Of a DNA stretch of 64,000 nucleotides, positions 17,119 to 45,066 are shown piece after piece (position 1 is the stretch's first letter; each line of letters starts with the position of its first letter). The notes beneath the pieces were generated by a model. That model was not told the DNA's origin. It saw only the letters and a list, made by a program, of their open reading frames with translations, and did no database searches. The position numbers were made by a program, and so were the translations under genes. This DNA is from Clostridiales bacterium (lineage in GTDB: Bacteria > Bacillota > Clostridia > Monoglobales > JAIRYP01): positions 10,686 to 74,685 of the forward strand of contig JAIRYP010000004.1 in assembly GCA_031267755.1 (NCBI GenBank), given 5' to 3'.

Positions 17119-19182
17119 TTATCTGAAACATGCATTAAATTCTTTAAACAGTTCTTTTGTCATTTTTTCGAAAAAAATATTAATTTCAAATTCTGTTAAA
17201 GTTCTTTCGCTTGATCTAAAAATTATCGAGTATGTGACACTTTTTGTATTAGGCGTCACTTGATTTCCAAAGTATATGTCAATTAATTTAATTTTCTCAA
17301 TAGTATCATTTTCTAACTTTTTTTTTGTAAAAAAATTTTCAATCTCAGAAATATCTATCTCATTTTTCACAAAAAAGGAAATATCTCTTACAATAGAAGG
17401 AAATTTTGAAACCGGAGAATATTTTCTATTTGAGTTGAAATTTTTTAGAATTTCTTCAAAACTGAGTTCACAAAGATATATTTCATAAGTGGCGCTAAAA
17501 TTTTTTATTTTGTGAGGGTGATATTGTCCAATAAACCCAGCACAAACACCATTTATTAAAACGGATGCTGCTTTTCCAGAATGAAGCAGTTTGTTGTCTT
17601 TCAATTTTTCAAATGAATAATTAAAAATTCCTAAATTTTCAAAAAGCTCTTGAATTGTTCCCTTTAAATCATAAAAATCACAATTTTTACACATGCCAAT
17701 AGATAAAAAAAGATTTTGAACGGGGAGTTTTGGTAAAATATTTTTTTTGTTCATGTTAACTTTATATTCGTTTTGATCTTGCGCTGTTTCGTTTAATCGA
17801 TATATGTTTCCCATTTCGAACAATCTAACTTCGTCGTTATTACAATTTATATTTTTTAAAATAACGTTAATCATAGAATCGATCAAACTTGTTCTCATAG
17901 ATTTACTTTCGTCGCCTGTTGGGTTTGAAATCTCCACTGCTTTACTTGAAACGAATGTATTTAATTTATTATTGGAAAAGGAAGAAGTAATTATTTCAAA
18001 ATAGCCTTGATGAACCAAAATATTTTTAATCTTGTCTTCAATTTCATGTTTTATAGTTTTTCCGTACATGTTAATTTCGCTGTTTATAGGAGTGGAAGGT
18101 ATTTTTTCATAACCATAAATTCTTGAAATTTCTTCAGCAACATCAAAAAAGTTTTCAATATCGTTTCTAAACCACGGGACTGTAATTTTATCGTTTTCAA
18201 CTTTAAAACCAAGTTTAGACAAAATATCTATCATGTCTTTTTTTTGTATGTTGCTTCCCAAAATTTTATTTATTTGATCGGCTTCGAGATTGATAATTTT
18301 TTCTTTGAAGACAGAATCAATTTTTTTAGTAATTGTACCTTCAAGTACGTTTCCACATCCAATATTTGAAATTAATTGGCATGCACGGTTAATTGCAAAA
18401 AATACGTTTTCTTGAAGAATATTTTTCTCAAAAAACGATGAAGCATTAGTTTTAATTCCAAGTTTTTTTGAAGTATTTTTAATTTTTTCTGCACTAAAAT
18501 TTGCTGCTTCTAATAAGATGGTTTTTGTGCTATTAGTTACAATTGTATTAAAACCACCCATAATTCCAGCAAGTCCTATAGCTTTTTTGTCATCACTGAT
18601 CACAATCATAGTTTCGTCAAGCTTTCTTTCTACTTTGTCTAAAGTTTTTAAAATTTCACCTTTATTTGCTAACCTTACAATAATTTTTTTGTTAGAAATA
18701 TTATTTAAATCATATGCATGCATTGGTTGTCCATACTCGAGCATAACATAATTAGTGATGTCTACAACGTTATTTATTGGTTTAATTCCAAAACATTTTA
18801 AACGATTTTGAAGCCATTCTGGAGATTCTTTTATACTAACATTTTTAATAACTTTGGCAGAAAATATAGAACATAGATCAAAATTTGTAATTTCAACAGA
18901 AATTTCATTTTCTATTTCTCCTGAAATTTGAACAAATTCCAAATCAGGAATTTTAAATTTCCTATCAAAAACTGCAGCAAATTCTCTTGAAATGCCAAAA
19001 ACACTTAAACAATCCGGTCGATTACTAGTTAATTCAATTTCTAAAACGTATTCATTTGTTTCTTTATTTTTTTCTATTTTTTCAACCTTGGTTCCGCTCA
19101 TAGTTAAAGCTTTAGAAATTTTCTCGTTTGTTATATTTTCAAGATCAACATAGTCGTTAATGCACGCAAGCGGAAATTTCAT
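17119..19182 (-). CDS. pheT: phenylalanyl-tRNA synthetase beta subunit (short form)
   Basis: The N-terminal MKFPLACINDYVDL is followed by the B3/4 region TSNRPDCLSVFGISRE, a B5 domain and a C-terminal FDX-ACB-like domain. It is 687 aa, and the usual OB-fold tRNA-binding insert is missing. Confidence 0.88.
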   Translation of the reverse strand: MKFPLACINDYVDLENITNEKISKALTMSGTKVEKIEKNKETNEYVLEIELTSNRPDCLSVFGISREFAAVFDRKFKIPDLEFVQISGEIENEISVEITNFDLCSIFSAKVIKNVSIKESPEWLQNRLKCFGIKPINNVVDITNYVMLEYGQPMHAYDLNNISNKKIIVRLANKGEILKTLDKVERKLDETMIVISDDKKAIGLAGIMGGFNTIVTNSTKTILLEAANFSAEKIKNTSKKLGIKTNASSFFEKNILQENVFFAINRACQLISNIGCGNVLEGTITKKIDSVFKEKIINLEADQINKILGSNIQKKDMIDILSKLGFKVENDKITVPWFRNDIENFFDVAEEISRIYGYEKIPSTPINSEINMYGKTIKHEIEDKIKNILVHQGYFEIITSSFSNNKLNTFVSSKAVEISNPTGDESKSMRTSLIDSMINVILKNINCNNDEVRLFEMGNIYRLNETAQDQNEYKVNMNKKNILPKLPVQNLFLSIGMCKNCDFYDLKGTIQELFENLGIFNYSFEKLKDNKLLHSGKAASVLINGVCAGFIGQYHPHKIKNFSATYEIYLCELSFEEILKNFNSNRKYSPVSKFPSIVRDISFFVKNEIDISEIENFFTKKKLENDTIEKIKLIDIYFGNQVTPNTKSVTYSIIFRSSERTLTEFEINIFFEKMTKELFKEFNACFR

Positions 19183-19191
19183 AATTTCTCC

Positions 19192-19785
19192 TTATATTTT
19201 TGTGTTCTTTAATCCTTTGTTTTTAAATTCTATTACGCGAAACATTTTTATTTTTTTTGAAATTATAGAACTCAAAACACAGAGTAAAAAATCGCTAGGC
19301 AAAAAAATCATAGACCAGTTTATTAAAAAATAAATTAATTTTTTTTGTATGTCAAGATAATAATTCATGATTAAATAACCATATAAAACTCCGAAAAAAT
19401 GAACTATCGTTAAGTTTATAAAACTTGCAATAATCATAACAGTCAAAGACTCAGTTTTAAATTTTTCGATTATTGTGCCGCAAACATATGAACCAAAAAT
19501 AAAACCTAATATGTATCCGAAAGTTGGTTTAAAAATATAACCAAATCCTCCGCCACAACTGAAAATCGGAAAACCCATTAAGCCGACCAAAACATAAGTT
19601 ATGATTGATAAACTTGCAAGTCTTCCACCTAAAATCAAAGCTGCAGCATTTGATATTGGAAATTGTAAAGTAAAAGGTACCATCCATGGAGTATTTATTT
19701 TAATAAATGAGCCAGCTGCAACAAGTGATGCAAACAAACTGCATAGCGCAATTTCTTTAACAAGTCTTTTTTGTTCTATAAACAA
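19192..19785 (-). CDS. bioY: biotin transporter BioY (ECF S component)
   Basis: 197 aa with 5-6 TM segments. It carries a BioY-like pattern (TPWMVPFTLQ, GGRLASLS, GFPIFSCGGG). Confidence 0.8.
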   Translation of the reverse strand: MFIEQKRLVKEIALCSLFASLVAAGSFIKINTPWMVPFTLQFPISNAAALILGGRLASLSIITYVLVGLMGFPIFSCGGGFGYIFKPTFGYILGFIFGSYVCGTIIEKFKTESLTVMIIASFINLTIVHFFGVLYGYLIMNYYLDIQKKLIYFLINWSMIFLPSDFLLCVLSSIISKKIKMFRVIEFKNKGLKNTKI

Positions 19786-19829: not shown

Positions 19830-21182
19830 TTACATTCTACTTTTAACAGTATTGTCTTTTTTTGACTTAGTGATTGTAGGATGCATAATTGTTGTTGGCA
19901 AATTTGAATCATCTTTGTCATATGTCAATTGTGTGCTAGAAACAGTTTCTTTTAAAGGACTATAATGAAACTGCTCTCCAAATCTTCGTGATAGTTTCAT
20001 CACATTCTTGGGCGAAGTTTCAGTTACCTTATCATCATTAACTTCAAACCATTTTCCATTAAGTTTAAGACACGTATAACTGTGTCCTCCCACTAGCCCC
20101 TTAACATTTTTGCCATAAGTTCTTATACGGACACCCGAACTATTGTATTTTGATATACTTCCATCAGGATGTCTCACAAACTTGCATTTTTCTTGGAATT
20201 CTTTATATGCTTTTGGATATTCTTCGCTAAGTTCTTTTGTTAAAAGTTCTCTTGTTTTTTCGCTATCCCCACTTTTATTGGGCGGTGAAAAAAGATAAAA
20301 AACTCCATTTCTACGTTTTTCAATATAACCTCCATCCTCTAAACAAAATCTATTATTTATATAAGTGACATTTATTGTAACCTGAGTCAATTCATGAGGT
20401 TTACCTTCAATTTCAAAAAATCTAGGCACTTCTCTTTCTTGCGTTTTCCACGGCATTCTCCCTAACCATTCTTCATCGTTGGTTTCATTTTCTGTTTTTT
20501 TTCCGCTAACAGCAGAAAAACCATATCCAAAATGAAGTCTTTCTTTTAAATCAAAAGTTTTTTTCACGATTTCTTCAGATACAGGAGAAATTGAATCTAT
20601 TTCTACAGGATTTTTATAAGCTGTCTGGCTTTCTTTAATAATTTTATTAACAAAAAGATTATAAGTAATAAGAAAATTTCCACCGCTTATTTTTTTAATT
20701 CCAACTAAGTTTAAAACTTTCCTCGCAATTTTCTTCATTTTTGATATTCCAAATTCTTCTTTATTTTCTACACTCGTAAAAATTTTTTTCATTTCATGAC
20801 AAAGAGGTTGTTCTTCTTCACTCCATTCTCCATATAACACCGGATGGTACATATTGCTGTTTATAATAGCATGAAAAACTGCATTTAAAAAACACGTACC
20901 TTCGCTGTTTGCAAACCTAGCTATGAGTTCTTTATTAAATTCTTTTGACAATAAATTTTTTTTATCTTCTTTTTCTGCTAAATCTTCACGCAATTTATAA
21001 CTTTTCATTTTTTCACTATTTTTATTTTTATCGAATCGATTATAAATTCCAAAACTGAGAATTAATAAAAGGAAATTAATAATCATTGAAGAAAAATATA
21101 AAAAAATATTAGAACGTGCACCGGTCTTTGACACACTTAACACCACGCATTTTAAGTAAAATAAATGTACAATAAATTTCAC
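19830..21182 (-). CDS. membrane-anchored USP-like (peptidase C19-like) cysteine protease, putative deubiquitinase-type enzyme
   Basis: Cys box FANSEGTCFLNAVFHAI (Cys97 at nt 20894-20892). His box VGGHSYTCLKLNGKWFEVNDDKV (His367 at nt 20084-20082). A hydrophobic segment spans about aa 26-47. The track start is GTG, and the true start is uncertain (ATG at 21086 is also possible). Confidence 0.6.
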   Translation of the reverse strand: MKFIVHLFYLKCVVLSVSKTGARSNIFLYFSSMIINFLLLILSFGIYNRFDKNKNSEKMKSYKLREDLAEKEDKKNLLSKEFNKELIARFANSEGTCFLNAVFHAIINSNMYHPVLYGEWSEEEQPLCHEMKKIFTSVENKEEFGISKMKKIARKVLNLVGIKKISGGNFLITYNLFVNKIIKESQTAYKNPVEIDSISPVSEEIVKKTFDLKERLHFGYGFSAVSGKKTENETNDEEWLGRMPWKTQEREVPRFFEIEGKPHELTQVTINVTYINNRFCLEDGGYIEKRRNGVFYLFSPPNKSGDSEKTRELLTKELSEEYPKAYKEFQEKCKFVRHPDGSISKYNSSGVRIRTYGKNVKGLVGGHSYTCLKLNGKWFEVNDDKVTETSPKNVMKLSRRFGEQFHYSPLKETVSSTQLTYDKDDSNLPTTIMHPTITKSKKDNTVKSRM

Positions 21183-21272: not shown

Positions 21273-22055
21273 TTAAGATATATTTTTAAGTTGCAATCTT
21301 AGTTTATCGGCAATCATAGCTATAAATTCAGAATTTGTAGGTTTCCCTTTAGTATTTGCAACAGTATAACCAAAAAAAGAATTTAAAATATTGATATCGC
21401 CCCTACTCCAGGCAACCTCTATTGCGTGCCTTATGGCGCGTTCTACACGACTTGGTGTTGTATCGTATTCTTTTGCGACCATTGGATACAGTTCTTTTGT
21501 TATTGAATTTACTGCATGTAAGTTGTTTATTACCATCATTATTGAACTTCTCACATATTGATAACCTTTAATGTGTGCAGGAATTCCTATTTCATGCATT
21601 ATATCGGTCACAAGCGTTTCGGTGTCAGCAATTTTTACAGATTTCATGCTCATTCCTTTGTTGCGCTCGTTTGAAGATTCATCTACTATATTTTTTATTC
21701 TGGTTACTAAACAATCAAAATTTATAGGTTTAATCATATAATATTTTGCACCGAGTTCCGTGCAAGTTTGAGCAATTTTTTCGTGCGACATTGATGTGAT
21801 TATTATAAATGTAACATTGAAATCAAGATCTATTCTGTTTATTCTCTCTAAAACTCCAATACCATCTAGATTTGGCATAACAACATCAAGTAGTACAACA
21901 TCTGGCTTAGTAATTTGTATTAATTCGATTGTTTCAATTCCGTCTGAACTTTCTCCAACAATTTCCATATTTCCTTCTGAAGAAAGAAATTGATGCAAAC
22001 TTTCTCTATAGCTTCTGTTATCATCAGCTATTAAAATTTTAATTTTTTTATTCAC
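21273..22055 (-). CDS. spo0A: sporulation master regulator Spo0A
   Basis: A receiver domain ([21 protein letters not shown]) is followed by the Spo0A C-terminal DNA-binding signature ([36 protein letters not shown]). Confidence 0.95.
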
Positions 22056-23491: not shown

Positions 23492-24307
23492 ATGATTGTA
23501 TACGCTTTAGTTGGTGAAAGCGGAACCGGGAAAAGTTATAATAGTCTGCGAGTTGCTAAGGAAAATAATATATATTATGTTATAGATGACGGAATACTTA
23601 TTCACAAAAATAAAATTTTATGTGGAAAGTCTGCAAAAAAAGAGCGTACAAAAGTTGCTTCAGTAAAGTGCGCCTTATTTTTCGATAAAAAACATAGAGA
23701 TGATATGAAAAAAACAATAAAAGAAAAAAAGATAAATTTTCTTCTCATACTTGGAACATCAAAGAAAATGGTTGAAAAAATTGCTGAAAATTTGGGACCT
23801 TTTAAAATTTCAAAATTTATTAGTATGGAACAAATTTCATCTTCTGAAATTATTGAATACGCAAAGAAAATGAGGCAAGAGCAAGGCAAACATATTATTC
23901 CGGTTCCTACACTTGAAGTTAGGAAGCATTTTTTAGGATATTTTTTAGATCCTATAAAACTCAGTTTTATAAGAAAAAATAAAGTGATTGTTGAGGAAAA
24001 AACGGTAATTCGTCCGAGTTTTAGTTTTTTTGGAGAATATTTTGTCTCAAATAAAGTAATTTTTGATATTTGCGTTTATGAAATTCTGAAATTTAAAGAA
24101 GTTCAAAAGATTGTTAATGTCAGAATTTTTGGTATTAAAATTAAAAAGTTAAGCTTAGTAATTGATCTTATTTTATTGTATCCTTCTGATTTAAAAGGCG
24201 TTTGCAGTAAAGTTTCTAAAATACTTAGGAAAAAAATTGAAGATTTTACATCACTCAATGTAAAGAATATAAAAGTTAATGTAAAGACAATTGTTTTTAA
24301 AAAATAA
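23492..24307 (+). CDS. hypothetical fusion protein: N-terminal P-loop NTPase-like domain plus C-terminal Asp23/Gls24-like domain
   Basis: Walker A-like LVGESGTGKS occurs at aa 6-15. The C-terminal ~100 aa (GEYFVSNKVIFDICVYEILKFKEVQKIVNVRI to LNVKNIKVNVKTI) has the alternating pattern of Asp23-family proteins. Confidence 0.5.
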   Translation: MIVYALVGESGTGKSYNSLRVAKENNIYYVIDDGILIHKNKILCGKSAKKERTKVASVKCALFFDKKHRDDMKKTIKEKKINFLLILGTSKKMVEKIAENLGPFKISKFISMEQISSSEIIEYAKKMRQEQGKHIIPVPTLEVRKHFLGYFLDPIKLSFIRKNKVIVEEKTVIRPSFSFFGEYFVSNKVIFDICVYEILKFKEVQKIVNVRIFGIKIKKLSLVIDLILLYPSDLKGVCSKVSKILRKKIEDFTSLNVKNIKVNVKTIVFKK

Positions 24308-25203: not shown

Positions 25204-25218
25204 AGTTTGGAGTCCATT

Positions 25219-25842
25219 ATGATTTACAATGATGACAACGTTATTGTTTGTTTTTGTCCTGAGTGCGAAGAAATTTGCATTAAAGAAGTTTATTTTTTTA
25301 ATTTTCACACTTTAAAGGGAAAAACAATCATATGTGAAAATTGTAAATCTGTTGTGGTTGAAATAGTTGTTGAGAGTATGAAAAAATATAAAATGAGATT
25401 TTTATGTTGTGAATGTGGAAACATTCACGAAACATTTTTAAATCCGTCGATTTTTTGGAGAAGTGAAATTTTTATTTATAAATGTCAAGTTACTAATGGA
25501 GTTTCTTTAATTACGGGAGAAAAAAATAATGTTTTTAAATTTGTTGAAACTTTGAAAGAAACTCAAGACATAAATACTTCAAGTATTGAAAATCTTCTTG
25601 AAGAAAGAGGTGAAAATCATGTTGTGTTTGCTGAAATTGTAAATGTAATAAGAGAAATAAACAAAAATAATAGAATTGTTTGCGAATGTGAAAATAGAGA
25701 CATAATTTTAACATTGAACAAAAAAAATATTAAATTTTTGTGTGAAAAGTGTAAGAATGTGAAGATAATAAAAGTTACTAAAAAGGAACTTGTTAAATTA
25801 AAAAAAGATGGCAAAATACATGTGAAAAAAATTTATTTATAA
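25219..25842 (+). CDS. hypothetical Cys-rich protein with repeated zinc-ribbon-like CxxC pairs
   Basis: The track starts at TTG 25207, but the ATG at 25219 lies 6 nt after GGAG. Cys pairs: CFCPEC/CENC, CCEC with a distal C, and CEC/CEKC. Confidence 0.55.
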   Translation: MIYNDDNVIVCFCPECEEICIKEVYFFNFHTLKGKTIICENCKSVVVEIVVESMKKYKMRFLCCECGNIHETFLNPSIFWRSEIFIYKCQVTNGVSLITGEKNNVFKFVETLKETQDINTSSIENLLEERGENHVVFAEIVNVIREINKNNRIVCECENRDIILTLNKKNIKFLCEKCKNVKIIKVTKKELVKLKKDGKIHVKKIYL

Positions 25843-32568: not shown

Positions 32569-33438
32569 TTGAGCGCAACGGAATCAATCGTTGAAAAATA
32601 TGGAATAAAAAATCTGTCTGATCTTGAAGAATTGATAGAAAATACTGAATTCGAAATAGATTCATTGGGAGAAGAAGCGGAAAATTATCCTGAAATGGAA
32701 AAATTTTTATCTAATTTATACAAATTACGTTTGAAATTGGAAAAGGAAAATGCTTCTCCTGAAGCACCACCTGAATCAACAGATGCGGAAACGTCTTCAG
32801 TTTGGGAAAATGAAACTGCCCCTCCTGAAGCATCACCTGAATCGGAAGAAATAGTTTTAGAATCACCTGCTGAATCGGCAGAATCGAAAACATTTTCTAT
32901 AGAAGAAGTAAACCTCGAAACATATCCTACTTGTGAAAGTAAAATTGCCTCTTCTGAAGTACCTCCAGTAGCACCACCTGCTATAGAAAATTTTAGAACA
33001 AAAGAAGAATTTCAAACTTTAATTCGAGAATGTGCTAAACAAGAGGAACCTGTGGATTGGAGTGTTGTAGACAGTTCAGACGAGTTGAGACGTTGTAGTG
33101 TTGATACTTTAGAGACGTATCTAGCGTATTCGGAGGTTATGGATTTTAAAATTGATCGTATCCTTAAACATGAAAATGAAAATGATTTGGAATTACTTTA
33201 CACATACTTTGGCAGACTTATTGAACTTATCTTTGAACAACTTAAATGTATCGAACATACCTTTGAACAACGTGAACGTATGGTATGTATATTGGGCCGA
33301 TGCGAATGTATTAGAAGTACCTTTGAACAAACGAAATGTACTGAATACAAAAAATTGTTAAGAGATGAAATTGGTAGGACCAGATTTTTTAGAGATTTGA
33401 ACGAGAGATGTCAAATAGTAAGAGCTACAAACAGATAA
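32569..33438 (+). CDS. orphan acidic protein with Pro/Glu/Ser repeats and a C-terminal Cys-containing FEQ repeat
   Basis: TTG start 10 nt after AGGAGG. A 22-nt near-repeat, ctcctgaagca(c/t)cacctgaatc, occurs at 32756-32777 and 32822-32843. ctttgaacaa occurs three times (33231, 33261, 33321), encoding (I/T)FEQ-x-KC-x-E. No signal peptide is visible. Confidence 0.65.
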   Translation: MSATESIVEKYGIKNLSDLEELIENTEFEIDSLGEEAENYPEMEKFLSNLYKLRLKLEKENASPEAPPESTDAETSSVWENETAPPEASPESEEIVLESPAESAESKTFSIEEVNLETYPTCESKIASSEVPPVAPPAIENFRTKEEFQTLIRECAKQEEPVDWSVVDSSDELRRCSVDTLETYLAYSEVMDFKIDRILKHENENDLELLYTYFGRLIELIFEQLKCIEHTFEQRERMVCILGRCECIRSTFEQTKCTEYKKLLRDEIGRTRFFRDLNERCQIVRATNR

Positions 33439-34210
33439 AGACGCCTGAAACAACTGGGCAAATTAAAACAAAGTAATCTTGAGAGGAAAAGAAAATTATC
33501 ACTTGAACTGTTATCATCTCAAATTGTAAGGAGAGAGTACAGAGAATTTTTAAAATAAAACAGATAAAACGAATGATAAACTGTTAAGTGATTTATTTCA
33601 AGAGAGTTAAACATTTGAAATTTTTTGTTTAAAAAAACATAATGTAAGATTGTCGAGTTTTGAATATATTAAAATAAAGATGAGATTGCAATTAAAGTCG
33701 CATTGAAAAAAATATCAGAGCAGATTTTACCATTTTCGTTTTTTTAATTTTATAAAGCTTACATTATTTGCGCTGAAGCAATGTTTTGCGATATTTTATG
33801 AAAAAAGAAATTTGATAGAACAAAAGGGAATTTATAGATCAATAAATTGTAATGATGATTCTTCAGCGTTACAGTCGCATAGTTACAGCAACAACACATT
33901 TTCCAGATTTTAATTTATTTGAGATTTGGTTTTGTTTTATTATTGAGTTATCAATTTATTTTTCATTTCATAGTACTTCTATAAATTTCAGTGAATTTCA
34001 TAGTATTCTTGTTTCTACGGTATGCCACAGTTTTATATTATTCGCCATTCGATAAATCTCTCAGGTTATTTGTTTTGCAGTTATTATGTTGAAATATATT
34101 ATTTTATAGCAGAATGTTTACATGAATATTTAAATGCACATAAGAAATAAACTAGACATAATATATAATAATAGCAATAAAATACCAACATTTCAAGGAG
34201 GGAGAATAAC

Positions 34211-34345
34211 ATGAATAAAAATTTTATTTACCCACCAAAGCATTATGAATACGGATATTTTAATAGAAAAATTACAAGCGAATTCATTAAAGGTTTGATA
34301 CTCAACAATTTATTTAGAGTGTATCATAGACCTTTTGAAAGATAA
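34211..34345 (+). CDS. candidate small protein (44 aa)
   Basis: It falls below the track's length cut-off. The ATG at 34211 lies about 8 nt after a near-perfect SD (AAGGAGGGAG). Product: MNKNFIYPPKHYEYGYFNRKITSEFIKGLILNNLFRVYHRPFER. It converges on the tRNA cluster. Confidence 0.4.
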   Translation: MNKNFIYPPKHYEYGYFNRKITSEFIKGLILNNLFRVYHRPFER

Positions 34346-34383
34346 AACTATAGATTGTATGCTATAAAACTTATAATTATTAG

Positions 34384-34457
34384 TGGAGGCGCCACCCAGA
34401 TTTGAACTGGGGATAAAGCTTTTGCAGAGCTTTGCCTTACCACTTGGCCATGGCGCC
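34384..34457 (-). tRNA. tRNA-Cys (anticodon GCA)
   Basis: The reverse complement GGCGCCATGGCCAAGTGGTAAGGCAAAGCTCTGCAAAAGCTTTATCCCCAGTTCAAATCTGGGTGGCGCCTCCA folds as a cloverleaf. The anticodon loop is CTGCAAA and CCA is encoded. Confidence 0.9.
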
Positions 34458-34485
34458 AATTATTAAGATAGCATTCCCTAAAAAA

Positions 34486-34560
34486 TGGAGCGGAAGACGA
34501 GGATCGAACTCGCGACTCTCACCTTGGCAAGGTGATGCTCTACCACTGAGCCACTTCCGC
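34486..34560 (-). tRNA. tRNA-Gly (anticodon GCC)
   Basis: The reverse complement is GCGGAAGTGGCTCAGTGGTAGAGCATCACCTTGCCAAGGTGAGAGTCGCGAGTTCGATCCTCGTCTTCCGCTCCA. The anticodon loop is TTGCCAA. Confidence 0.9.
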
Positions 34561-34714
34561 ATTGTTTCTTCAGTTTTATAATTTTAGTATACGTACAACC
34601 GCCGTAGAAGTGTAAAAAAATTAATTTTTTGTCTTTTGTAAATTTTTAAATAAATTCCTTTTAAAATATAATTATATGATTTTAATGCGAACGTTTTACA
34701 ATTGTTTACATTTT

Positions 34715-34790
<76 letters not shown>

Positions 34791-34801
34791 AACCATAAAA
34801 T

Positions 34802-34878
34802 TGGCGACCCGAAAGGGATTTGAACCCTCGACCTCCAGCGTGACAGGCTGGCATTCTAACCATCTGAACTATCGGGCC
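34802..34878 (-). tRNA. tRNA-Asp (anticodon GTC)
   Basis: The reverse complement is GGCCCGATAGTTCAGATGGTTAGAATGCCAGCCTGTCACGCTGGAGGTCGAGGGTTCAAATCCCTTTCGGGTCGCCA. The anticodon loop is CTGTCAC. Confidence 0.9.
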
Positions 34879-34881
34879 AAA

Positions 34882-34957
34882 TGGTAGGCACAACAGGGAT
34901 CGAACCTGTGACCCTCTGCTTGTAAGGCAGATGCTCTCCCAGCTGAGCTATGCGCCC
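34882..34957 (-). tRNA. tRNA-Val (anticodon TAC)
   Basis: The reverse complement is GGGCGCATAGCTCAGCTGGGAGAGCATCTGCCTTACAAGCAGAGGGTCACAGGTTCGATCCCTGTTGTGCCTACCA. The anticodon loop is CTTACAA. The acceptor stem has two G-U pairs. Confidence 0.85.
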
Positions 34958-35000
34958 TTAAAAATATCGAACATGCTTATCTTAAAATATTAAAGTTTGC

Positions 35001-35022
35001 TCTCCGGAAATTTAGCCGGAGA
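35001..35022 (-). terminator. GC-rich hairpin between csp and the tRNA cluster (probable csp terminator)
   Basis: TCTCCGG-aaatttag-CCGGAGA forms a 7-bp stem with T/A-rich flanks on both sides. Confidence 0.5.
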
Positions 35023-35040
35023 ATTTTATAATTTTTTTAT

Positions 35041-35253
35041 TTAATCGCAAGGACAAACTTCAGATGCCTGAGGGCCTTTGTGTCCATCTACGATATAGAA
35101 TTCAACGTTCGCTCCTTCTTCCAACGTTTTATAACCTTCTGCTTCAATTGCTGAAAAATGCACGAAAACATCCGAACCGGTTTCGCTTTCGATGAAACCA
35201 TAACCCTTTTCAGCATTAAACCACTTTACTTTTCCCTTTTGTTTCTTTACCAT
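35041..35253 (-). CDS. cold-shock protein (CspA family)
   Basis: Contains [15 protein letters not shown] (RNP1) and VFVHFSAI (RNP2). 70 aa. Confidence 0.95.
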
Positions 35254-35554
35254 TGCACAACCCCACTTTTTCGTTCAACGAACTTAAAATTTAGTGTCAA
35301 TAAAAACACTACGCCGGATACTATCATAATTATTTCTTGCAGTCAACACTGTTTAAATTTTTTTTAAAAATATTTTAATTTTTGTTTTAATAATTTATAA
35401 AATATTCCTATAGAATGTATTTTCATCATTTTTCATAAAATTTTATTATAAATTTTGATTTTTTAAATAATTCTTTACTTTTTATTTTATTTATGTAATA
35501 ATGAAGATTATTATTTTGAATATTTAAATTTTTTGAACTGTAGGGGTGAGTTGA

Positions 35555-38500
35555 ATGTTGTTAAATAATAATTATAAAGTTTATATTCGTTTTTCAGCAG
35601 ATGGTGCTGGTTTAAGCAGTGATTTTTTTAGCGATGAACAAAGAGGTGTAATTGATAATTTATTTAAAAATGTTATTTTAAATAATTTTTTTGAAGTTTT
35701 TTATAGAGTCAATGAAATAAAGGGAAATGGCGTTGTTTTTGCAAGACAAATTTTAGATTATTTAGAAGGTAGAAGTTCAGAAATTAAAAAAATTAAATTT
35801 ACATTGGATGGCGTTGAAATATTAGGTTTTTATTGTGATTCAAAAATATTTTCTGCTGATTTTAAACTATTATATGAATTTGATCATGAAGATGAGTTTT
35901 TTAAGAAATATGGTAGTGATGAACGGGTTAAAATTGATGGTTGCGGGCGTCCTTTATATATACCCCGTAATGAAAATTTTGACGATATTATTGCTATGCA
36001 ATTGTCATACGACTTCAAAGATCAAAACTTACCTATAATTCGAAATTTAATTAATGAATTGGAATTAAATTATTTAGATTTAAAGACATCACTTGAAAGT
36101 TTATACTCATACATAAAATTTTCACCAAGTAGTTGTGCTAATAATTTTAAACAAATGAAAAAAACATTAGTTGACGAAGATACTTTAAATTTTCTTCGAG
36201 GAAATAATTGTCTAGTAAGTTTTTTTTGTGAATATTTAGGTGATAGATTTAAAAGTGAATTTTTTAATGCATTGAAAAAAATTGAAAAAAACGAAGATGA
36301 TGGTTTAGAAATTTTTAATACTTATAGAATTTTAATAAATGGTGAATTAAAAACTGTTTACATTTGGGGAGAAAGCTTATTTGATGCAGAATCAGGAACT
36401 AGGTTATGCGGTTTTGATTTTTCTTATAAAAAAGCATTCGATGATTATGGAAATTTTGTTGAATTAAAGGATGTACTTGGTGAAGCGTTAGATCTTTCGA
36501 ATTTAAATGATGGAACTAGTGAGTGTTATCACTTAAATCGATCAATTTTTCTTCCAGTTCATAAACTTAATTATAATTTGGGAATTTTTAAAGAATTTTT
36601 TAATCTTTTTAGAAGAAATAATGTTGAATATTCATTTTCAATTATTTCACAAGAATTATTTGGATTTAATTTAAGTGAAAAATTTGAAAAATTTAAATTT
36701 ATTATTAATTCCGATGCTCTTTCAAACAGAGCATTAGGAAATAAAAGTTTTGGCGTTTATGATTCTTATTTTATAAAAGAATTTTCGAAACTTCTTTCAT
36801 TTCCTTTTTTTGATTGTATTTTAGAAAATATAGTTTCTAATAATACTAATATTGGTTCTAAGCATAACGCACTTTTTTTTATTTTAAAAGATATTTTTGA
36901 AAGAAATTATATTGATTTATTTTATTTTACGAAAATTGTTATTAATAATTCTGAGTTTTCTGTTTATAGAATAGGTAATGATTTATTTGATATTAAAACG
37001 TTAAAATTGGTTGCTAGTTTCAATCCAGATTCAGATAAATTTTTAGATTCAAGTTTAAATGAAATCAAAGTATACGTTAAAGATGAAGATGAAGATGAAA
37101 ATAAAGTTCTAGAAGTTTTAACTTTAGAAGATTTGGTTTTTAATAGTGATTGTTATAAATTGCCTGATTTTTTGCATCCCTTTCAATACTTGAATTTAAG
37201 TACTTTAGAAATTTTAAAAAGTTTTCATGATTACGCGGTTTCTAATCTGTCATCAATGTCAAATGAAATGTTTGAAAAAGTTTCTTTACGATTAAGTGAT
37301 ATTGAAGAAGTTAATGTTTTCAACGCCCATGAAAAAAAATTATTGAGTGAAATTGTAAAAAGTGATTATTGGGCGTTTTTGCATGGAATATTTACGAATA
37401 TTTCAGAAGATACCACAATCGATAATTTTATTTATTCTATTTCGCATAATGTTTTGTTTTTGGAATATAGTGCTAACGTTAATGGCTCAGATTGTACTAT
37501 ACATATTGATAAAAAACACGGTATTGTGTACGATAAGGATTTTAAACCTTTATTCTATGTAAATGAGTCTGGCAATTTTATAAATTTTTTTGGTGAAGAA
37601 ATTACTTTAATAATAAACGAAGAAGAAATTAAAGATTTAAATAATATTAATATGAATCAGCCTTCTGATAGAGAAATTTCTCCACTTGTACTTAGTTTGT
37701 TAGCTGATCGTAGTATTTTGGAAAGACTCTTAGTATTGTTTAAAGAACGTGGGGATGTAGCTTATGATGAATTTCAAGATTTTATGAATAATGAAATAAT
37801 AGAGTCAAAACGTATATTAGTTGAAGATGAATTTTTTGATATTATGGTACGTGAGATTGATGGTTTATCTTTTAAAAAGGCTTTTACAAAAGATCAAAGG
37901 GATATACTTGAAGCTTGCAAAAGTGACCCTTTTGTACTAAAAATTTTACCACTTTTGCAGGGCTTGGAGAATGTTGAAGAATTTGAAGAAACATGTTCTT
38001 ATTTTTTAAATGATAGATCGTTTAATGGTTTTGAAGTTGAAATTTCAGGTGTGAAAACAGAAGTAGTTGTGTTTGATAATGAAATTTATTCGGCGGTTTC
38101 TGGTGAAACTTTGGGTCGGATAGTGGGAAACGTTATAATGTCTGAGGGCCATCCTGATGTAGTTCTTAATGCGACAAAATTGGATGGCAATTCTCTTCTT
38201 ATTGAAATAGAAGGAGACTATGTTTTTGATATTGAAAATTTAGATCCTGCAGAGGGCAATCCTGCAGTATTTGAAAACTTAAAGAAATTACTTGGTTTTA
38301 GTGGAAGTGCACAAGAAGCTTTTTACGAACTTTTTAAAAAGGAAGAAGATATAGATGGAAGCACATTAGAACGAATGCAAAATGCATTAAGGAAAGATGT
38401 ACCAGGAGTAGAGTGGAATGATGGTGATGCAGAAGATGACGATGTAGAAGTTAAACACACGGATGATGAACATGCAGATGATGATGTAAAACACAGCAAA

Positions 38501-39268
38501 CATACAGATATTGTTGGAGATTCTCATGTTATAGCCGCACATATTCCAAAGGTTGTTAAAAATGAGTTAGAATCTGATCCTGTTTTTCCGTTATCATCGA
38601 ATCTTCCAAAACCAAATGATGAAACCAAATCGGTAGAAACTTTTGAATTGTGCGATAAACGTAAAGAAGAAATTTTTAAAATGCGTTCTAAAGCTTTTAT
38701 ACAAAAAGACTTTGAGACCCGTCGTAGTATTCTTTTGTCATTATATCAAACGCTTGGTTTAAACCATGATCAAGAAACTCTTTTTAAAAAAATATTTTTT
38801 TGTTATACGGTTGATTTGTTTGCAAAAAATGGAATTTTTAGCACAGAAGATAAAGAAAAAATTGAAGATATTTTTAAGAATAATCCTAAAGCACAAACTG
38901 ACTTATTTGAATTATTTGAAAATGGAAATGAAAAAGATTTCCTAGAATATTTTAAAAATTATAAACGATTTAGCTCGGGTCTAATTGGTAATTTAAAGCA
39001 GCTTTTTGTGATTGTTTTAAATGGTTTTTTGGATATATTTGGTTATAAAAAAAATCAACGCACTGTTGAAGCAGTGCAAAAAACTTTTTGTGAAACATGC
39101 GATTCAGATTTGTGTTTTTTATTTAATAAACCTGTGCTTTTAAATGAAAGAGTTTCTACATGTTTGTTTGTTAATGCAGATGAAATTGAAAAACATAGAG
39201 AGTTAGAGATTTTAGCTAAATTTCCAAAAGAAACTAAGGATAGGAGTGATGTTTTGCCCAAAATTTAA
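35555..39268 (+). CDS. orphan giant protein (1237 aa) built from five ~185-aa repeat units, an acidic His-rich linker and a helical C-terminal domain
   Basis: ATG lies 6 nt after GGGGTGAG. It is a single uninterrupted ORF with no Walker, HExxH or other catalytic motifs seen, no signal peptide and no TM segment. The repeated hairpin-like motif lies at aa 81-110, 257-290, 460-490, 636-670 and 826-860. Confidence 0.75.
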   Translation: MLLNNNYKVYIRFSADGAGLSSDFFSDEQRGVIDNLFKNVILNNFFEVFYRVNEIKGNGVVFARQILDYLEGRSSEIKKIKFTLDGVEILGFYCDSKIFSADFKLLYEFDHEDEFFKKYGSDERVKIDGCGRPLYIPRNENFDDIIAMQLSYDFKDQNLPIIRNLINELELNYLDLKTSLESLYSYIKFSPSSCANNFKQMKKTLVDEDTLNFLRGNNCLVSFFCEYLGDRFKSEFFNALKKIEKNEDDGLEIFNTYRILINGELKTVYIWGESLFDAESGTRLCGFDFSYKKAFDDYGNFVELKDVLGEALDLSNLNDGTSECYHLNRSIFLPVHKLNYNLGIFKEFFNLFRRNNVEYSFSIISQELFGFNLSEKFEKFKFIINSDALSNRALGNKSFGVYDSYFIKEFSKLLSFPFFDCILENIVSNNTNIGSKHNALFFILKDIFERNYIDLFYFTKIVINNSEFSVYRIGNDLFDIKTLKLVASFNPDSDKFLDSSLNEIKVYVKDEDEDENKVLEVLTLEDLVFNSDCYKLPDFLHPFQYLNLSTLEILKSFHDYAVSNLSSMSNEMFEKVSLRLSDIEEVNVFNAHEKKLLSEIVKSDYWAFLHGIFTNISEDTTIDNFIYSISHNVLFLEYSANVNGSDCTIHIDKKHGIVYDKDFKPLFYVNESGNFINFFGEEITLIINEEEIKDLNNINMNQPSDREISPLVLSLLADRSILERLLVLFKERGDVAYDEFQDFMNNEIIESKRILVEDEFFDIMVREIDGLSFKKAFTKDQRDILEACKSDPFVLKILPLLQGLENVEEFEETCSYFLNDRSFNGFEVEISGVKTEVVVFDNEIYSAVSGETLGRIVGNVIMSEGHPDVVLNATKLDGNSLLIEIEGDYVFDIENLDPAEGNPAVFENLKKLLGFSGSAQEAFYELFKKEEDIDGSTLERMQNALRKDVPGVEWNDGDAEDDDVEVKHTDDEHADDDVKHSKHTDIVGDSHVIAAHIPKVVKNELESDPVFPLSSNLPKPNDETKSVETFELCDKRKEEIFKMRSKAFIQKDFETRRSILLSLYQTLGLNHDQETLFKKIFFCYTVDLFAKNGIFSTEDKEKIEDIFKNNPKAQTDLFELFENGNEKDFLEYFKNYKRFSSGLIGNLKQLFVIVLNGFLDIFGYKKNQRTVEAVQKTFCETCDSDLCFLFNKPVLLNERVSTCLFVNADEIEKHRELEILAKFPKETKDRSDVLPKI

Positions 39269-39558
39269 TCATAATAAAATAAAAATTTAAGACATATGAT
39301 ATTATTATTTTAATTTTTTAAATTATTTTTAAAATTTTATTGAAATTTCAGTGTTGTTTAATATATAATAAGAATTAAAATTTTTAAAAAATATTGAAGG
39401 ATGGGGATGATATTTAAGATATTAGTAATAATAAATGTGTATTATAAATAATAAAATTTTTTGTAGTTTTATATTGATTTTTTAATTTATTTGTGCTATC
39501 ATGACTATGTTGTATTTTTTAGTTAGATGAATTTAAAATTTTTTGGAGGATGAATTTT

Positions 39559-44082: not shown

Positions 44083-45066
44083 TTAAAAATAGAAATTTAT
44101 GTTTTCCAAATTATTTATACCATTCGAGATATTAAACAAAATTTCCTCTACTTCATATATAACTTTCATTTTATTTATTTTTTCCTTTAAAGAATTGTTT
44201 AATTTTATTCCTTTTAAATACCAAAACAAATGCTTTCTAAATTCTCTTATCCCTCTTTTTTCTCCTTTATATTTAAGTAAAAATTTAGCGTGTTCTAAAG
44301 AAATATTTAATTTTTCTGTTAAAGTAGGCTTTTTGAGTTTTTTTTTATATTTCAAATAATAATTAATTTCTCTAAATATCCAAGGATTACCTCTTGAAGC
44401 GCGCCCGATCATTATTGCATCACATTTTGTTTTTTTAATGAAATTTTCGGCTGATTCTTCGTCAATTATATCTCCGTTTCCAATAATAGGAATTTTTACA
44501 TTTTCTTTTATTTTTTTTATTATTCCTAAATCAACTTGTCCCTTAAAAAATTGTTCCCTGGTTCTTCCATGAACTATGATCGCTGTTGAACCACTTTCTT
44601 CTAATATTTTAGAAAATTCCACAGCATTCGTTAAATTTTCATTCCAACCATTTCTAATTTTAACTGAGACTGGAACATCCGATACCTTTACTACAGCTTT
44701 TACAATTTCTTCCGCTAATTTTGGTTCTTTCATCAAATAACATCCGTCTTTATTTTTAACGATTTTAGGTGCCGGACATCCCATATTTATATTTATAAAT
44801 TTTGCTTTACCGTTTAATTTTTCGTAAGTAATTTTTTGCATTACTGTTGGATTGTGACCAAAAATTTGAATTCCAACCATGCCTTCTTGATTTGATATTT
44901 CCAAATATTCTTCAGTTTTTTTATTGTTAAAAAACAAACCCTCACAGCTTACCATTTCAGTAAAACTGATAGCGGGCTCAAATTTTTTTGCAATAATTCG
45001 AAATGCTTTATCAGTAATTCCGGCCATTGGTGCAAGCCAAACGCTGTTTTTAAAAAGTTTTTCCAC
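44083..45066 (-). CDS. dusB: tRNA-dihydrouridine synthase
   Basis: Contains LAPMAGITD, NMGCPAPK (catalytic Cys), VSVKIR, VHGRT and MIGRA blocks. Confidence 0.9.
   Translation of the reverse strand: MEKLFKNSVWLAPMAGITDKAFRIIAKKFEPAISFTEMVSCEGLFFNNKKTEEYLEISNQEGMVGIQIFGHNPTVMQKITYEKLNGKAKFININMGCPAPKIVKNKDGCYLMKEPKLAEEIVKAVVKVSDVPVSVKIRNGWNENLTNAVEFSKILEESGSTAIIVHGRTREQFFKGQVDLGIIKKIKENVKIPIIGNGDIIDEESAENFIKKTKCDAIMIGRASRGNPWIFREINYYLKYKKKLKKPTLTEKLNISLEHAKFLLKYKGEKRGIREFRKHLFWYLKGIKLNNSLKEKINKMKVIYEVEEILFNISNGINNLENINFYF

What the first reader, a model, noticed from the sequence alone, without database searches (positions are those of the whole stretch)
19830..21182. Eukaryote-type ubiquitin-specific-protease (USP, C19-like) catalytic signatures in a membrane-anchored bacterial protein
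The product carries both hallmark blocks of the USP fold in the correct order. The Cys box is ARFANSEGTCFLNAVFHAIIN (Cys97, with Asn at -5). Compare human USP7 as I remember it: GLKNQGATCYMNSLLQTLF. The His box is GLVGGHSYTCLKLNGKWFEVNDDKVTETSPKNV (His367, Asn382, Asp383/384). Compare USP7: [33 protein letters not shown]. About 270 residues separate the boxes, which is within the USP core range. A hydrophobic segment (aa ~26-47) suggests a signal anchor and so an extracytoplasmic or exported catalytic domain. Bacteria lack ubiquitin, and USP-like enzymes are rare in them. Where known, for example Burkholderia TssM, they act on host ubiquitin pathways. In a host-associated spore former this is a candidate effector or host-interface enzyme. 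The gene is embedded between spo0A and bioY and is as AT-rich as its neighbours, which argues for long residence rather than a fresh transfer.
Basis: partly seen in the sequence, partly recalled or inferred. Interest (0 to 1): 0.8.

Follow-up and report, generated by a model that had tools for sequence, protein, structure and literature searches.

The report
Divergent USP-like protease in a Clostridia genome
An orphan gene between spo0A and bioY in an AT-rich, spore-forming Clostridia genome probably encodes a very diverged, membrane-tethered relative of eukaryotic ubiquitin-specific proteases, but its fold and any activity on ubiquitin remain unproven.

Summary
A 450-codon ORF (19830..21182, minus strand) carries a USP-type Cys box (N92...C97) and His box (H367...N382/D383), 270 residues apart, after one hydrophobic helix.

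The match is more than chance:
- Pfam UCH is the only family hit (E=4e-5), at 23.8 bits against a 23.9-bit cut-off.
- hhalign against a USP profile scores 39-44; 200 shuffles reached at most 24.7.
- Each box motif occurs once in 1.86 million six-frame residues.

It is not proven to be a USP:
- No homologue exists in about 15 billion proteins, so there is no family alignment.
- AlphaFold failed on the single sequence (pLDDT 38). With a borrowed USP7 alignment, only the His-box palm was modelled confidently.
- The aromatic gatekeeper that marks Gly-Gly-specific DUBs is absent (His-Ser-Tyr, not His-Tyr).
- The start codon and membrane topology are ambiguous.
- All neighbours are housekeeping genes: no E1/E2/Ubl, no secretion system.
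- Host association could not be checked.

Verdict: a likely (about 0.55) USP-like cysteine peptidase. It would be a new variant beside Burkholderia TssM and Simkania SnUSP1-3. Deubiquitinase or effector function is only about 0.2 likely.

The parts
19830..21182 (-). Maximal ORF (450 codons from GTG, stop included) encoding the USP-like protein
   Evidence: numbering checked; codon-position GC 0.399/0.328/0.196 is typical of the window's genes
21132..21134 (-). Candidate start GTG (aa 17), giving a 434-aa product that includes the hydrophobic helix; this is the IMG gene call
   Evidence: P0122 is 434 aa; a partial SD 'GGTG' lies 6 nt upstream; the frame stays open for 65 codons upstream of M59 against 0-24 for 23 other genes
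21006..21008 (-). Alternative start ATG (aa 59), giving a 392-aa product without the helix; this is the NCBI PGAP call (MDR1391669.1, LBJ09_00530)
   Evidence: only a weak SD-like 'GTGA' lies upstream
21042..21113 (-). Hydrophobic segment, aa 24-47 (NIFLYFSSMIINFLLLILSFGIY): putative signal anchor or signal-peptide core
   Evidence: Kyte-Doolittle 19-residue windows exceed 1.6 at aa 24-30, with a maximum of 2.26; sequence
20859..20921 (-). Cys box, aa 88-108 (ARFANSEGTCFLNAVFHAIIN), with the proposed oxyanion-hole residue Asn92
   Evidence: aligned on the USP Cys box by MAFFT, by the second hhalign alignment and by the local HMM
20892..20894 (-). Codon of the proposed catalytic Cys97
   Evidence: an invariant column with the USP catalytic Cys
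20001..20099 (-). His box, aa 362-394 (GLVGGHSYTCLKLNGKWFEVNDDKVTETSPKNV)
   Evidence: Pfam UCH best stretch 364-394 on profile positions 211-244; hhalign; USP14 and USP36 PDB alignments
20082..20084 (-). Codon of the proposed catalytic His367, followed by Ser368-Tyr369 where USPs have His-Tyr
   Evidence: G-H-Y is invariant in 60 USP7-family sequences; gatekeeper definition from PMC7391069
20034..20039 (-). Codons of Asn382-Asp383, the proposed third catalytic residue, 15-16 residues after the His
   Evidence: aligned to the USP7 'FDDD' and USP14 'FDDDKV' segments
19899..20201 (-). Palm-like C-terminal region, aa 328-428: the only part modelled with confidence (pLDDT about 76-93 over most of it)
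   Evidence: AF2 with the USP7-family alignment; Foldseek top hits are all USPs over about 100 columns; the model is biased by the borrowed alignment
21273..22055 (-). Upstream neighbour spo0A
   Evidence: Pfam Spo0A_C 4.6e-45 and Response_reg
19192..19785 (-). Downstream neighbour bioY, 44 bp after the stop, followed by pheT (17119..19182)
   Evidence: Pfam BioY 5.1e-32; PheT domains

Best explanation
The gene encodes a lineage-specific, extremely diverged USP-like (clan CA, C19-like) cysteine peptidase.

Inferred mechanism: Cys97 is the nucleophile at the start of the Cys-box helix. His367 is the general base. Asn382 (or Asp383) orients the His. Asn92 contributes to the oxyanion hole. The 270-residue Cys-His spacing implies a full-length USP-type core with thumb, a shortened finger-like beta region and palm, not a fingerless core like that of TssM.

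The enzyme is most likely tethered to the cytoplasmic membrane by one N-terminal helix, followed by a charged linker of about 40 residues. Which side the catalytic domain faces is unresolved.

The USP domain is essentially eukaryotic, and the gene has the host genome's codon usage. The likeliest origin is therefore an old transfer from a eukaryote, followed by amelioration and rapid divergence.

The substrate is unknown. My best guess is hydrolysis at the C-terminus of a ubiquitin-like or other small-residue-terminated polypeptide. Because the S2 gatekeeper is His-Ser-Tyr instead of His-Tyr, specificity is probably relaxed or shifted away from strict Gly-Gly.

Shown: the ORF, the motifs, the profile similarity, native composition, housekeeping context and orphan status. 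Inferred: the fold, the catalytic roles, membrane tethering, origin and substrate.
For: - Pfam UCH is the only family reported at E<=10: E=4e-5, two stretches, His box on profile positions 211-244 of 254. The C-terminal half alone scores 15.4 bits, so the N-terminal half adds about 8 bits.
- A local HMM of 119 USP7-family proteins scores 14.7 bits against a best of 6.9 in 2000 shuffles. Its alignment runs from the His box to the terminal 'LTY' strand.
- hhalign gives probability 52-70%, E 4e-5 to 1.4e-4. A second, collinear alignment places the Cys box on the USP Cys box with high posterior confidence, score 26.7. The best scores of 200 shuffles have mean 15.7 and maximum 24.7.
- The His-box fragment searched against PDB returns 8 hits at E<=10. 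Six are USP14 or USP36, with His on the catalytic His.
- MAFFT against USP7, USP2, USP14 and USP21 gives invariant N, T, C, N and G, H, W, D, V and L, Y columns. It also lines up 'PWKTQEREVPRFFEIEG' with 'MWRKYLEREDSRIGDLFVG' and 'GVFYLFSPP' with 'GVKFLTLPP'.
- Both motif regexes are unique in 1.86 million residues and rare in shuffles.
- With a USP7 alignment, AF2 models the palm at pLDDT 76-93, and every top Foldseek hit is a USP.
- The 450-codon ORF is intact in a 27% GC genome, where about 8% of random codons are stops, and codon usage is native.
- Membrane helix: the frame is open for 65 codons upstream of M59 (P about 0.004; other genes 0-24), and the Kyte-Doolittle maximum is 2.26. The IMG call includes the helix.
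- Precedent: the Simkania USPs also carry hydrophobic regions (PMC10643670).
Against: - The Pfam score (23.8) is just under the gathering cut-off (23.9). The N-terminal half alone matches nothing, and the Cys-box fragment finds no PDB sequence.
- There is no homologue anywhere, so conservation of the proposed catalytic residues cannot be tested.
- Single-sequence AF2 failed (pLDDT 37.6) and its Foldseek hits are meaningless.
- The MSA-based model is biased by the borrowed USP7 rows. It is poor for residues 1-37 and 105-248 of the 392-aa form, and it puts the Cys inside a long low-confidence helix. The USP matches cover only about 100 columns at TM about 0.2.
- The gatekeeper aromatic residue is absent.
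- The 'QQDxxE' acidic thumb motif is not evident in the alignment.
- From my recollection of the PROSITE USP patterns, neither would be matched in full.
Confidence: 0.55

Rival explanations
1. One reading: a true ubiquitin- or Ubl-specific deubiquitinase, displayed on or released from the cell, that acts on the ubiquitin system of a eukaryotic host as an effector or host-interface enzyme.
For: - All the USP-similarity evidence applies.
- Every characterised bacterial USP-type enzyme is a DUB aimed at host ubiquitin: TssM and SnUSP1-3.
- SnUSPs also have hydrophobic regions.
- The full-length Cys-His spacing leaves room for a ubiquitin-binding fingers region.
Against: - His367 is followed by Ser, not the His-[FYW] gatekeeper that contacts Ub Gly75 and is near-universal in Gly-Gly-cleaving DUBs.
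- The conserved acidic thumb motif is not evident.
- The window shows an ordinary sporulating Clostridia chromosome (Spo0A, SpoIVA, PolC, GyrA, MurJ) with no injection or secretion system and no other eukaryote-like genes.
- Known bacterial USPs come from intracellular Gram-negatives.
- Habitat and host association are unverified.
- Flanking charges favour a cytoplasmic catalytic domain.
Confidence: 0.2
2. No homology. An orphan membrane protein of unrelated fold happens to carry two short USP-like motifs, and the profile scores are inflated by the K/N/E-rich composition of an AT-rich genome.
For: - The score is below Pfam's curated cut-off.
- Each box alone is weak: 15.4 bits at E=0.015, and nothing at all.
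- hhalign probability is only 43-70%.
- There is no unbiased structural support.
- There is no family to show conservation.
- The same segment produced spurious hits to NHL and WG repeat proteins.
Against: - Two independent motifs occur in the correct order and at USP-typical spacing.
- Shuffles that preserve composition never approach the real scores.
- UCH is the only Pfam family hit among 24,736.
- Six of 8 PDB hits for the His-box fragment are USPs aligned on the catalytic His.
- Further collinear matches appear in the interior and at the C-terminal strand.
Confidence: 0.25
3. A USP-derived relic or pseudoenzyme. The fold is retained but catalysis is lost or irrelevant, and the protein serves a structural or binding role, or is drifting.
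For: It shows extreme divergence, orphan status, altered residues next to the active site (His-Ser-Tyr; His in place of the Cys-box Gln), and no functional partners nearby.
Against: Every catalytic position (Asn, Cys, His, Asn/Asp) is retained despite overall identity of about 18% to USPs. A 450-codon ORF cannot stay open by chance at 27% GC. Codon-position GC is that of an expressed native gene.
Confidence: 0.1
4. A deconjugating peptidase of an endogenous bacterial ubiquitin-like (Bil/Bub-type) pathway.
For: Bacteria do possess E1/E2/Ubl conjugation operons with dedicated peptidases (bioRxiv 10.1101/2023.09.26.559546 and 10.1101/2023.09.04.556158, listed).
Against: Those peptidases are JAB/JAMM or DUF6527 serine proteases encoded in the same operon as E1, E2 and Ubl. 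Here the neighbours are spo0A, bioY, pheT, veg and tmk. No E1/E2/Ubl domain appears in the 40 window ORFs scanned, and PADLOC finds nothing.
Confidence: 0.03

Closest known systems
Eukaryotic ubiquitin-specific proteases (USP/UBP; MEROPS C19; Pfam PF00443 UCH), e.g. USP7, USP14, USP21
   Same: Same: a Cys box with Asn at -5, Thr at -1 and 'C-F-L-N-A' after the Cys. From my recollection of USP21, 'TCFLNAV' is identical to its Cys box. Also a His box 'GGH...GKW..(V)NDDKV', a third residue 15-16 positions after the His, a terminal 'L-x-Y' strand, and a Cys-His spacing of 270 (241 in my USP7 bait). Evidence.
   Different: Different: overall identity is only about 18%, and the Pfam score falls 0.1 bit below the cut-off. 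The protein has His-Ser-Tyr instead of the invariant His-Tyr gatekeeper. It has His instead of the Cys-box Gln, and no clear QQDxxE motif. The predicted finger region is about 24 residues shorter than in USP7 and has no zinc-ribbon cysteines. It is bacterial, has an N-terminal hydrophobic helix, and has no accessory UBL, MATH or similar domains.
Burkholderia TssM (fingerless USP-type effector; PMC10719079)
   Same: Same: a bacterial protein related to the USP family, very divergent from eukaryotic USPs, with a Cys/His/Asp(Asn) triad and His-to-third-residue spacing of 15 (H442 to D457; here H367 to N382).
   Different: Different: TssM lacks the whole Fingers subdomain, so its Cys308-His442 spacing is 134 against 270 here. 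It has an N-terminal Ig-like domain rather than a transmembrane helix, comes from a Gram-negative intracellular pathogen and is exported by type II secretion. No sequence similarity to TssM could be tested here.
Simkania negevensis SnUSP1-3 (PMC10643670)
   Same: Same: bacterial USP-type proteins with a full-length USP domain (SnUSP1 C193/H476, spacing 283) and hydrophobic regions thought to mediate membrane attachment.
   Different: Different: the SnUSPs show 'obvious similarity' over the whole USP domain and keep the aromatic gatekeeper. They are experimentally active on Ub-PA and Ub-AMC and come from a Chlamydia-like obligate intracellular bacterium. The present protein is far more diverged, lacks the gatekeeper, is untested, and sits in a sporulating Clostridia genome.
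Bacterial Bil/Bub ubiquitin-like conjugation operons and their peptidases
   Same: Same only in the broad sense of a possible Ubl-deconjugating activity inside bacteria.
   Different: Different: another protease class (JAB/JAMM metalloprotease or DUF6527 serine protease), and always operon-linked to E1, E2 and Ubl. None is present near this gene.

Membership tests
USP / peptidase C19 (Pfam PF00443 UCH) | Cys box: catalytic Cys preceded by the oxyanion-hole Asn (N-x-G-x-T-C-[FYW]-[LM]-N-[SA]) | tested here: met
   N92-S-E-G-T-C97-F-L-N-A. It aligns with the USP Cys box in MAFFT and in the second hhalign alignment with high posterior confidence. The core regex is found in 15 of 300,000 shuffles. 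Deviations: Glu-Gly instead of Gly-Asn/Ala at -3/-2, and His instead of Gln at +7.
USP / peptidase C19 (Pfam PF00443 UCH) | His box: catalytic His, with Asp/Asn about 15-17 residues downstream in a W-x3-[ND]-D-x-x-V context | tested here: met
   G-G-H367...W378-F-E-V-N382-D-D-K-V. Pfam best stretch 364-394 on profile positions 211-244; hhalign E 4e-5; aligned on the USP14 and USP36 catalytic His in PDB.
USP / peptidase C19 (Pfam PF00443 UCH) | Whole-protein score at or above Pfam's curated gathering threshold | tested here: not met
   23.8 bits against a cut-off of 23.9 (E=4e-5). The miss is 0.1 bit, which is marginal rather than a clear failure. NCBIfam has no match.
USP / peptidase C19 (Pfam PF00443 UCH) | Aromatic gatekeeper directly after the catalytic His (His-[Phe/Tyr/Trp]), contacting Ub Gly75 | tested here: not met
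   The sequence is His367-Ser368-Tyr369. G-H-Y is invariant in 60 USP7-family sequences. The motif definition and its role are in PMC7391069. Tyr at +2 might substitute only if there is a beta-bulge, which could not be tested.
USP / peptidase C19 (Pfam PF00443 UCH) | Thumb-Fingers-Palm fold with Cys and His juxtaposed | tested here: inconclusive
USP / peptidase C19 (Pfam PF00443 UCH) | Cys-to-His spacing of a complete USP core (about 240-320 residues) | tested here: met
   The spacing is 270 residues.
USP / peptidase C19 (Pfam PF00443 UCH) | Acidic thumb motif (QQDxxE) that binds Ub Arg72/Arg74 | tested here: inconclusive
   In alignment A3 the segment 'FVNKIIKES' lies opposite 'FMQHDVQEL'. 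The Glu may be kept but the Asp is not, and the alignment is unreliable in this region.
USP / peptidase C19 (Pfam PF00443 UCH) | Hydrolysis of ubiquitin/Ubl C-terminal (iso)peptide bonds | not testable with these tools
   This needs recombinant protein and Ub/Ubl probes.
TssM-type fingerless bacterial USP | Internal deletion of the Fingers subdomain (Cys-His spacing about 134) with a Littlefinger loop | tested here: not met
   The spacing here is 270, against C308/H442 in TssM.
Bil/Bub bacterial Ubl-pathway peptidase | JAB/JAMM or DUF6527 peptidase encoded in an operon with E1, E2 and Ubl | tested here: not met
   There is no JAB or DUF6527 match. The neighbours are spo0A, bioY, pheT, veg and tmk. 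PADLOC has no match. Operon definition.
Other membrane-anchored Gram-positive cysteine peptidases (sortase, C39, NlpC/P60, CHAP, YabG) | A profile match to the family; His-before-Cys order (sortase) or short Cys-His spacing | tested here: not met
   No such Pfam family appears even at E<=10. The order is Cys before His with 270 residues between them. The family properties are from general knowledge.

The most novel reading that the evidence does not exclude
[quoted passage not shown] That would make it the first USP-type deubiquitinase in Firmicutes, and the first from a bacterium with no known route into a host cytosol.
Probability: 0.2. Interest if true: 0.7.

Novelty: new variant of a known kind. 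Interest (0 to 1): 0.45.

Why it matters
Only two sets of bacterial USP-type enzymes have been described: Burkholderia TssM and Simkania SnUSP1-3. Both come from intracellular Gram-negatives and both are aimed at host ubiquitin.

A USP-derived protease in a sporulating Clostridia, native in codon usage and with a changed gatekeeper, would extend the reach of this eukaryotic fold in bacteria. It would also offer a natural test of the gatekeeper rule for Gly-Gly specificity.

Two things limit the impact. Everything rests on one sequence from one uncultured genome. The evidence also stops at borderline profile similarity.

Tried and rejected
**Homologue searches, all empty**
- The 5.8-billion-protein word-index search, run twice and up to E<=10, found only the protein itself.
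- Exhaustive phmmer over 1.84 billion representatives found only the protein itself plus P0002. P0002 is an NHL-repeat protein whose score is inflated by five repeats matching one 30-residue segment, so it is spurious.
- JGI metagenome contigs gave nothing, either by protein or by an exact 45-mer.
- IMG/VR viral contigs, phage records and plasmid records gave nothing.
- The look-up of encoding contigs has neither gene call on record.

**Profile search with baits**
- It retrieved only eukaryotic USP7-family proteins and no bacterial intermediates.

**Synteny**
- Eighty spo0A loci from GTDB representative genomes were fetched. The best Spo0A identity is only 56% (Ructibacterium gallinarum), and the window's own genome is not among them.
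- None of the loci encodes a relative. The one weak hit, in L057, is a WG-repeat protein.

**Structure**
- Single-sequence AF2 and its Foldseek search were useless.

**Other libraries and scans**
- NCBIfam, PADLOC, and PDB phmmer with the whole protein found nothing relevant.
- PHROGs gave only a weak hit of the Cys-box region to phrog_4438, of unknown function (E=0.0085).
- The promoter scan is uninformative in this AT-rich DNA: 22 sites found against 22.9 expected.

**Considered and rejected**
- Sortase, C39, NlpC/P60, CHAP and YabG-type peptidases: no profile match, and the residue order or spacing is wrong.
- A replication-origin reading of the GC-skew switch near 22.5 kb: the skew simply follows gene orientation across the window.
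- Eukaryotic contamination of the contig: the gene lies between spo0A and bioY and has native codon usage.

**Habitat**
- A literature search for the locus-tag prefix returned only unrelated grant numbers.
Full report
**1. What is there**

The window holds an uninterrupted 450-codon ORF on the minus strand, 19830..21182, counted from a GTG.
- A single strongly hydrophobic stretch lies near the N-terminus (aa 24-47). Its 19-residue Kyte-Doolittle maximum is 2.26.
- The gene sits in a run of minus-strand housekeeping genes: MurJ, a UDG-family glycosylase, a radical-SAM protein, IreB, PheT, BioY, this ORF, Spo0A and Veg. Thymidylate kinase diverges on the other strand.
- The rest of the window is also core chromosome: PolC, GyrA, DnaX, RNase Y, SpoIVA, a sigma factor, YidC, LytB, Cmk and others. 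So this is a sporulating member of the Clostridia.
- The window is 27.4% GC. The gene has GC 0.308 and GC3 0.196, inside the range of the other genes (0.125-0.259), and unremarkable codon usage. It is not contamination and not a recent arrival.

**2. Whose gene it is**

The sequence is in GenBank as MDR1391669.1, 'MAG: hypothetical protein LBJ09_00530 [Clostridiales bacterium]', on a 106,772-bp contig.
- The genome is not among the GTDB species representatives searched. The closest Spo0A there is only 56% identical (Ructibacterium gallinarum), followed by assorted gut Clostridia MAGs. The lineage is therefore poorly sampled.
- I could not establish the habitat, so 'host-associated' remains unverified.

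**3. Start codon and the hydrophobic helix**

The two public gene calls disagree. PGAP starts at Met59 (392 aa, no helix). IMG starts at the GTG of codon 17 (434 aa, with the helix).
- No candidate start has the clear Shine-Dalgarno sequence that most genes of the window show. GTG17 has 'GGTG' six bases upstream, and ATG59 has only 'GTGA'.
- The reading frame stays open for 65 codons upstream of Met59. For 23 well-defined genes of the window the equivalent number is 0-24, and at this composition 65 open codons have a probability of about 0.004.
- I therefore think the helix is part of the protein (inference). One caveat applies: T-rich non-coding DNA also translates into hydrophobic peptides.
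- Topology is open. With a start at codon 17, the N-flank has 2 Lys/Arg and the 15 residues after the helix have 5. By the positive-inside rule (general knowledge) this favours a cytoplasmic catalytic domain.
- A cleavable signal peptide ('SFG' then 'IY') cannot be excluded.

**4. Is the USP resemblance more than chance?**

Yes, but it sits at the edge of detection.
- **Pfam.** UCH (PF00443) is the only Pfam family reported even at E<=10. It scores E=4e-5 and 23.8 bits in two stretches, against a curated cut-off of 23.9. Split in two, the C-terminal half scores 15.4 bits (E=0.015) and the N-terminal half passes no filter. The Cys box therefore contributes only about 8 bits.
- **Local HMM.** An HMM I built from 119 retrieved USP7-family proteins scores 14.7 bits, against a best of 6.9 in 2000 composition-preserving shuffles. 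Its alignment runs from the His box to the C-terminal 'LTY' strand.
- **hhalign.** Against USP alignments it gives probability 52-70% and E between 1.4e-4 and 4e-5 for the His-box region. Its second, collinear alignment puts the Cys box on the USP Cys box with high posterior confidence, score 26.7. The best scores of 200 shuffles average 15.7 and never exceed 24.7.
- **PDB.** A 92-residue His-box fragment searched against PDB returns 8 sequences at E<=10. Six are USP14 or USP36, aligned His-on-His. The Cys-box fragment returns nothing.
- **Motif regexes.** Simple regex versions of the two boxes occur once each, in this ORF, in 1.86 million six-frame residues of the window plus 80 related loci. 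They occur in 15 and 6 of 300,000 shuffles. I wrote these patterns knowing the sequence.
- **Interior matches.** MAFFT also lines up 'PWKTQEREVPRFFEIEG' with USP2/USP21 'MWRKYLEREDSRIGDLFVG', and 'GVFYLFSPP' with USP7 'GVKFLTLPP'.
- **Bait sequences.** The USP7 bait is validated by retrieving USP7 orthologues at E=8e-114, and the USP14 His-box segment agrees with the PDB alignment.

**5. What could not be shown**

- **No family.** Nothing is related in about 15 billion proteins, whether by word-index search or exhaustive phmmer (the second hit is a repeat artefact). Nothing is related in metagenome, viral, phage or plasmid DNA, or next to spo0A in 80 other Clostridia. Conservation of the proposed catalytic residues therefore cannot be tested.
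- **Structure prediction starved.** The single sequence gave pLDDT 37.6 and meaningless fold matches. Using 60 USP7-family rows as a surrogate alignment gave pLDDT 54.4 and pTM 0.46.
  - Confidence was high only for residues of about 270-370 of the 392-aa form, which is the palm with the His box. It was low for the Cys box and poor for the middle.
  - Foldseek then returns only USPs (USP46, USP12, USP35, USP28, Ubp8, USP4, USP18, USP7), but over about 100 columns with TM about 0.2. That result is biased by the alignment I supplied.

**6. A feature that argues against a classical deubiquitinase**

Hermanns et al. (PMC7391069) showed that DUBs and other Gly-Gly-cleaving proteases have an aromatic residue directly after the catalytic His.
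- That residue packs against ubiquitin Gly75. It both supports catalysis and excludes larger side chains.
- The motif is invariant (G-H-Y) in the 60 USP7-family proteins aligned here. It is present in the three Simkania USPs.
- The present protein has His367-Ser368-Tyr369. On a beta-strand the +2 side chain points the other way.
- So either a bulge restores the contact, or the S2 pocket is open and specificity differs from Gly-Gly.
- The conserved acidic thumb motif is also not evident, though the alignment is unreliable there.

**7. Most likely mechanism**

I think this is a very diverged USP-like, clan CA cysteine peptidase, with confidence of about 0.55.
- Cys97 is the nucleophile, His367 the base, Asn382/Asp383 the orienting residue, and Asn92 part of the oxyanion hole.
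- The 270-residue spacing matches a complete USP core. SnUSP1 has 283. The fingerless TssM has 134.
- The region aligned to the Fingers is about 24 residues shorter than in USP7 and lacks zinc-ribbon cysteines. Shortened fingers are therefore plausible.
- The enzyme is probably tethered to the membrane by its N-terminal helix through a charged linker of about 40 residues.
- The USP domain is essentially eukaryotic and the gene is fully ameliorated. An old eukaryote-to-bacterium transfer followed by rapid divergence is the simplest history (inference).
- The substrate is unknown. I give about 0.2 to ubiquitin or Ubl hydrolysis directed at a eukaryote.
- I give about 0.25 to the motifs being a coincidence, about 0.1 to a relic or pseudoenzyme, and about 0.03 to a role in an endogenous Bil/Bub-type pathway. 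Such pathways use JAB or DUF6527 peptidases in E1/E2/Ubl operons, which are absent here.

**8. Comparison with known systems**

The protein resembles the USP/C19 family. I do not file it as a member.
- Two tested criteria are not met: the Pfam cut-off (by 0.1 bit) and the gatekeeper motif. The fold test is inconclusive.
- Among bacterial precedents it is unlike TssM, which is fingerless, has an Ig-like N-terminal domain and uses type II secretion.
- It is architecturally closest to Simkania SnUSP1-3, which have a full USP domain plus hydrophobic regions. Those show obvious USP similarity, keep the gatekeeper and are proven DUBs of an obligate intracellular bacterium.
- As of 2023 those were the only bacterial USP-type enzymes described. 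My searches found nothing newer.

**9. Verdict**

- The finding is a plausible new variant of a known kind: a bacterial USP-like protease in Firmicutes.
- It rests on a single orphan sequence with borderline profile evidence and no structural or functional proof.
- Interest is moderate (0.45). It would rise to about 0.7 if the enzyme proved to be an active ubiquitin or Ubl protease with a remodelled S2 gate.

Noticed in passing
window 32569-41076 (+), beside a tRNA cluster at 34384-34957 (-): Three consecutive ORFs have no Pfam family at E<=1e-5: a 289-aa acidic protein with 'APPE'-type repeats, a 1237-aa protein, and a 508-aa Ala-rich protein. The last has unusually high GC (0.39; GC1 0.57) and a tandem duplication 'PPGKGPGDSDLSAQP'. 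They flank five tRNA genes (Cys, Gly, Phe, Asp, Val). They may be lineage-specific surface or island genes.
   Followed up: partly
window 21006-21134 (-): The two public annotations of this gene disagree on the start: PGAP gives 392 aa from ATG59, IMG gives 434 aa from GTG17. Only the IMG call includes the hydrophobic helix. The frame is open for 65 codons upstream of ATG59, against 0-24 for other genes.
   Followed up: yes
window 20808-20957 (-), aa 76-125 of the ORF: The Cys-box region gives a weak match (E=0.0085, 17.3 bits) to phrog_4438, a 158-position phage protein family of unknown function. This may be chance, or that PHROG may be a small papain-like peptidase.
   Followed up: no
window 23492-24307 (+), 25207-25842 (+), 45050-45805 (-), 53800-54432 (+): Four further ORFs of 210-271 aa have no Pfam match at the thresholds used. 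Many lineage-specific genes would fit the isolated phylogenetic position of this genome, whose best Spo0A identity is 56%.
   Followed up: no
whole window: GC skew changes sign with gene orientation throughout: negative under minus-strand gene blocks and positive under plus-strand blocks. The switch at about 22.5 kb next to the gene is therefore a transcription-divergence point, not evidence of a replication origin.
   Followed up: yes
window 17119-19182 (-): The PheT orthologue is 687 aa and the first matched Pfam domain is only a weak B1 hit. This looks shorter than I recall for typical bacterial PheT, about 800 aa with an N-terminal tRNA-binding domain, which might indicate genome streamlining.
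   Followed up: no
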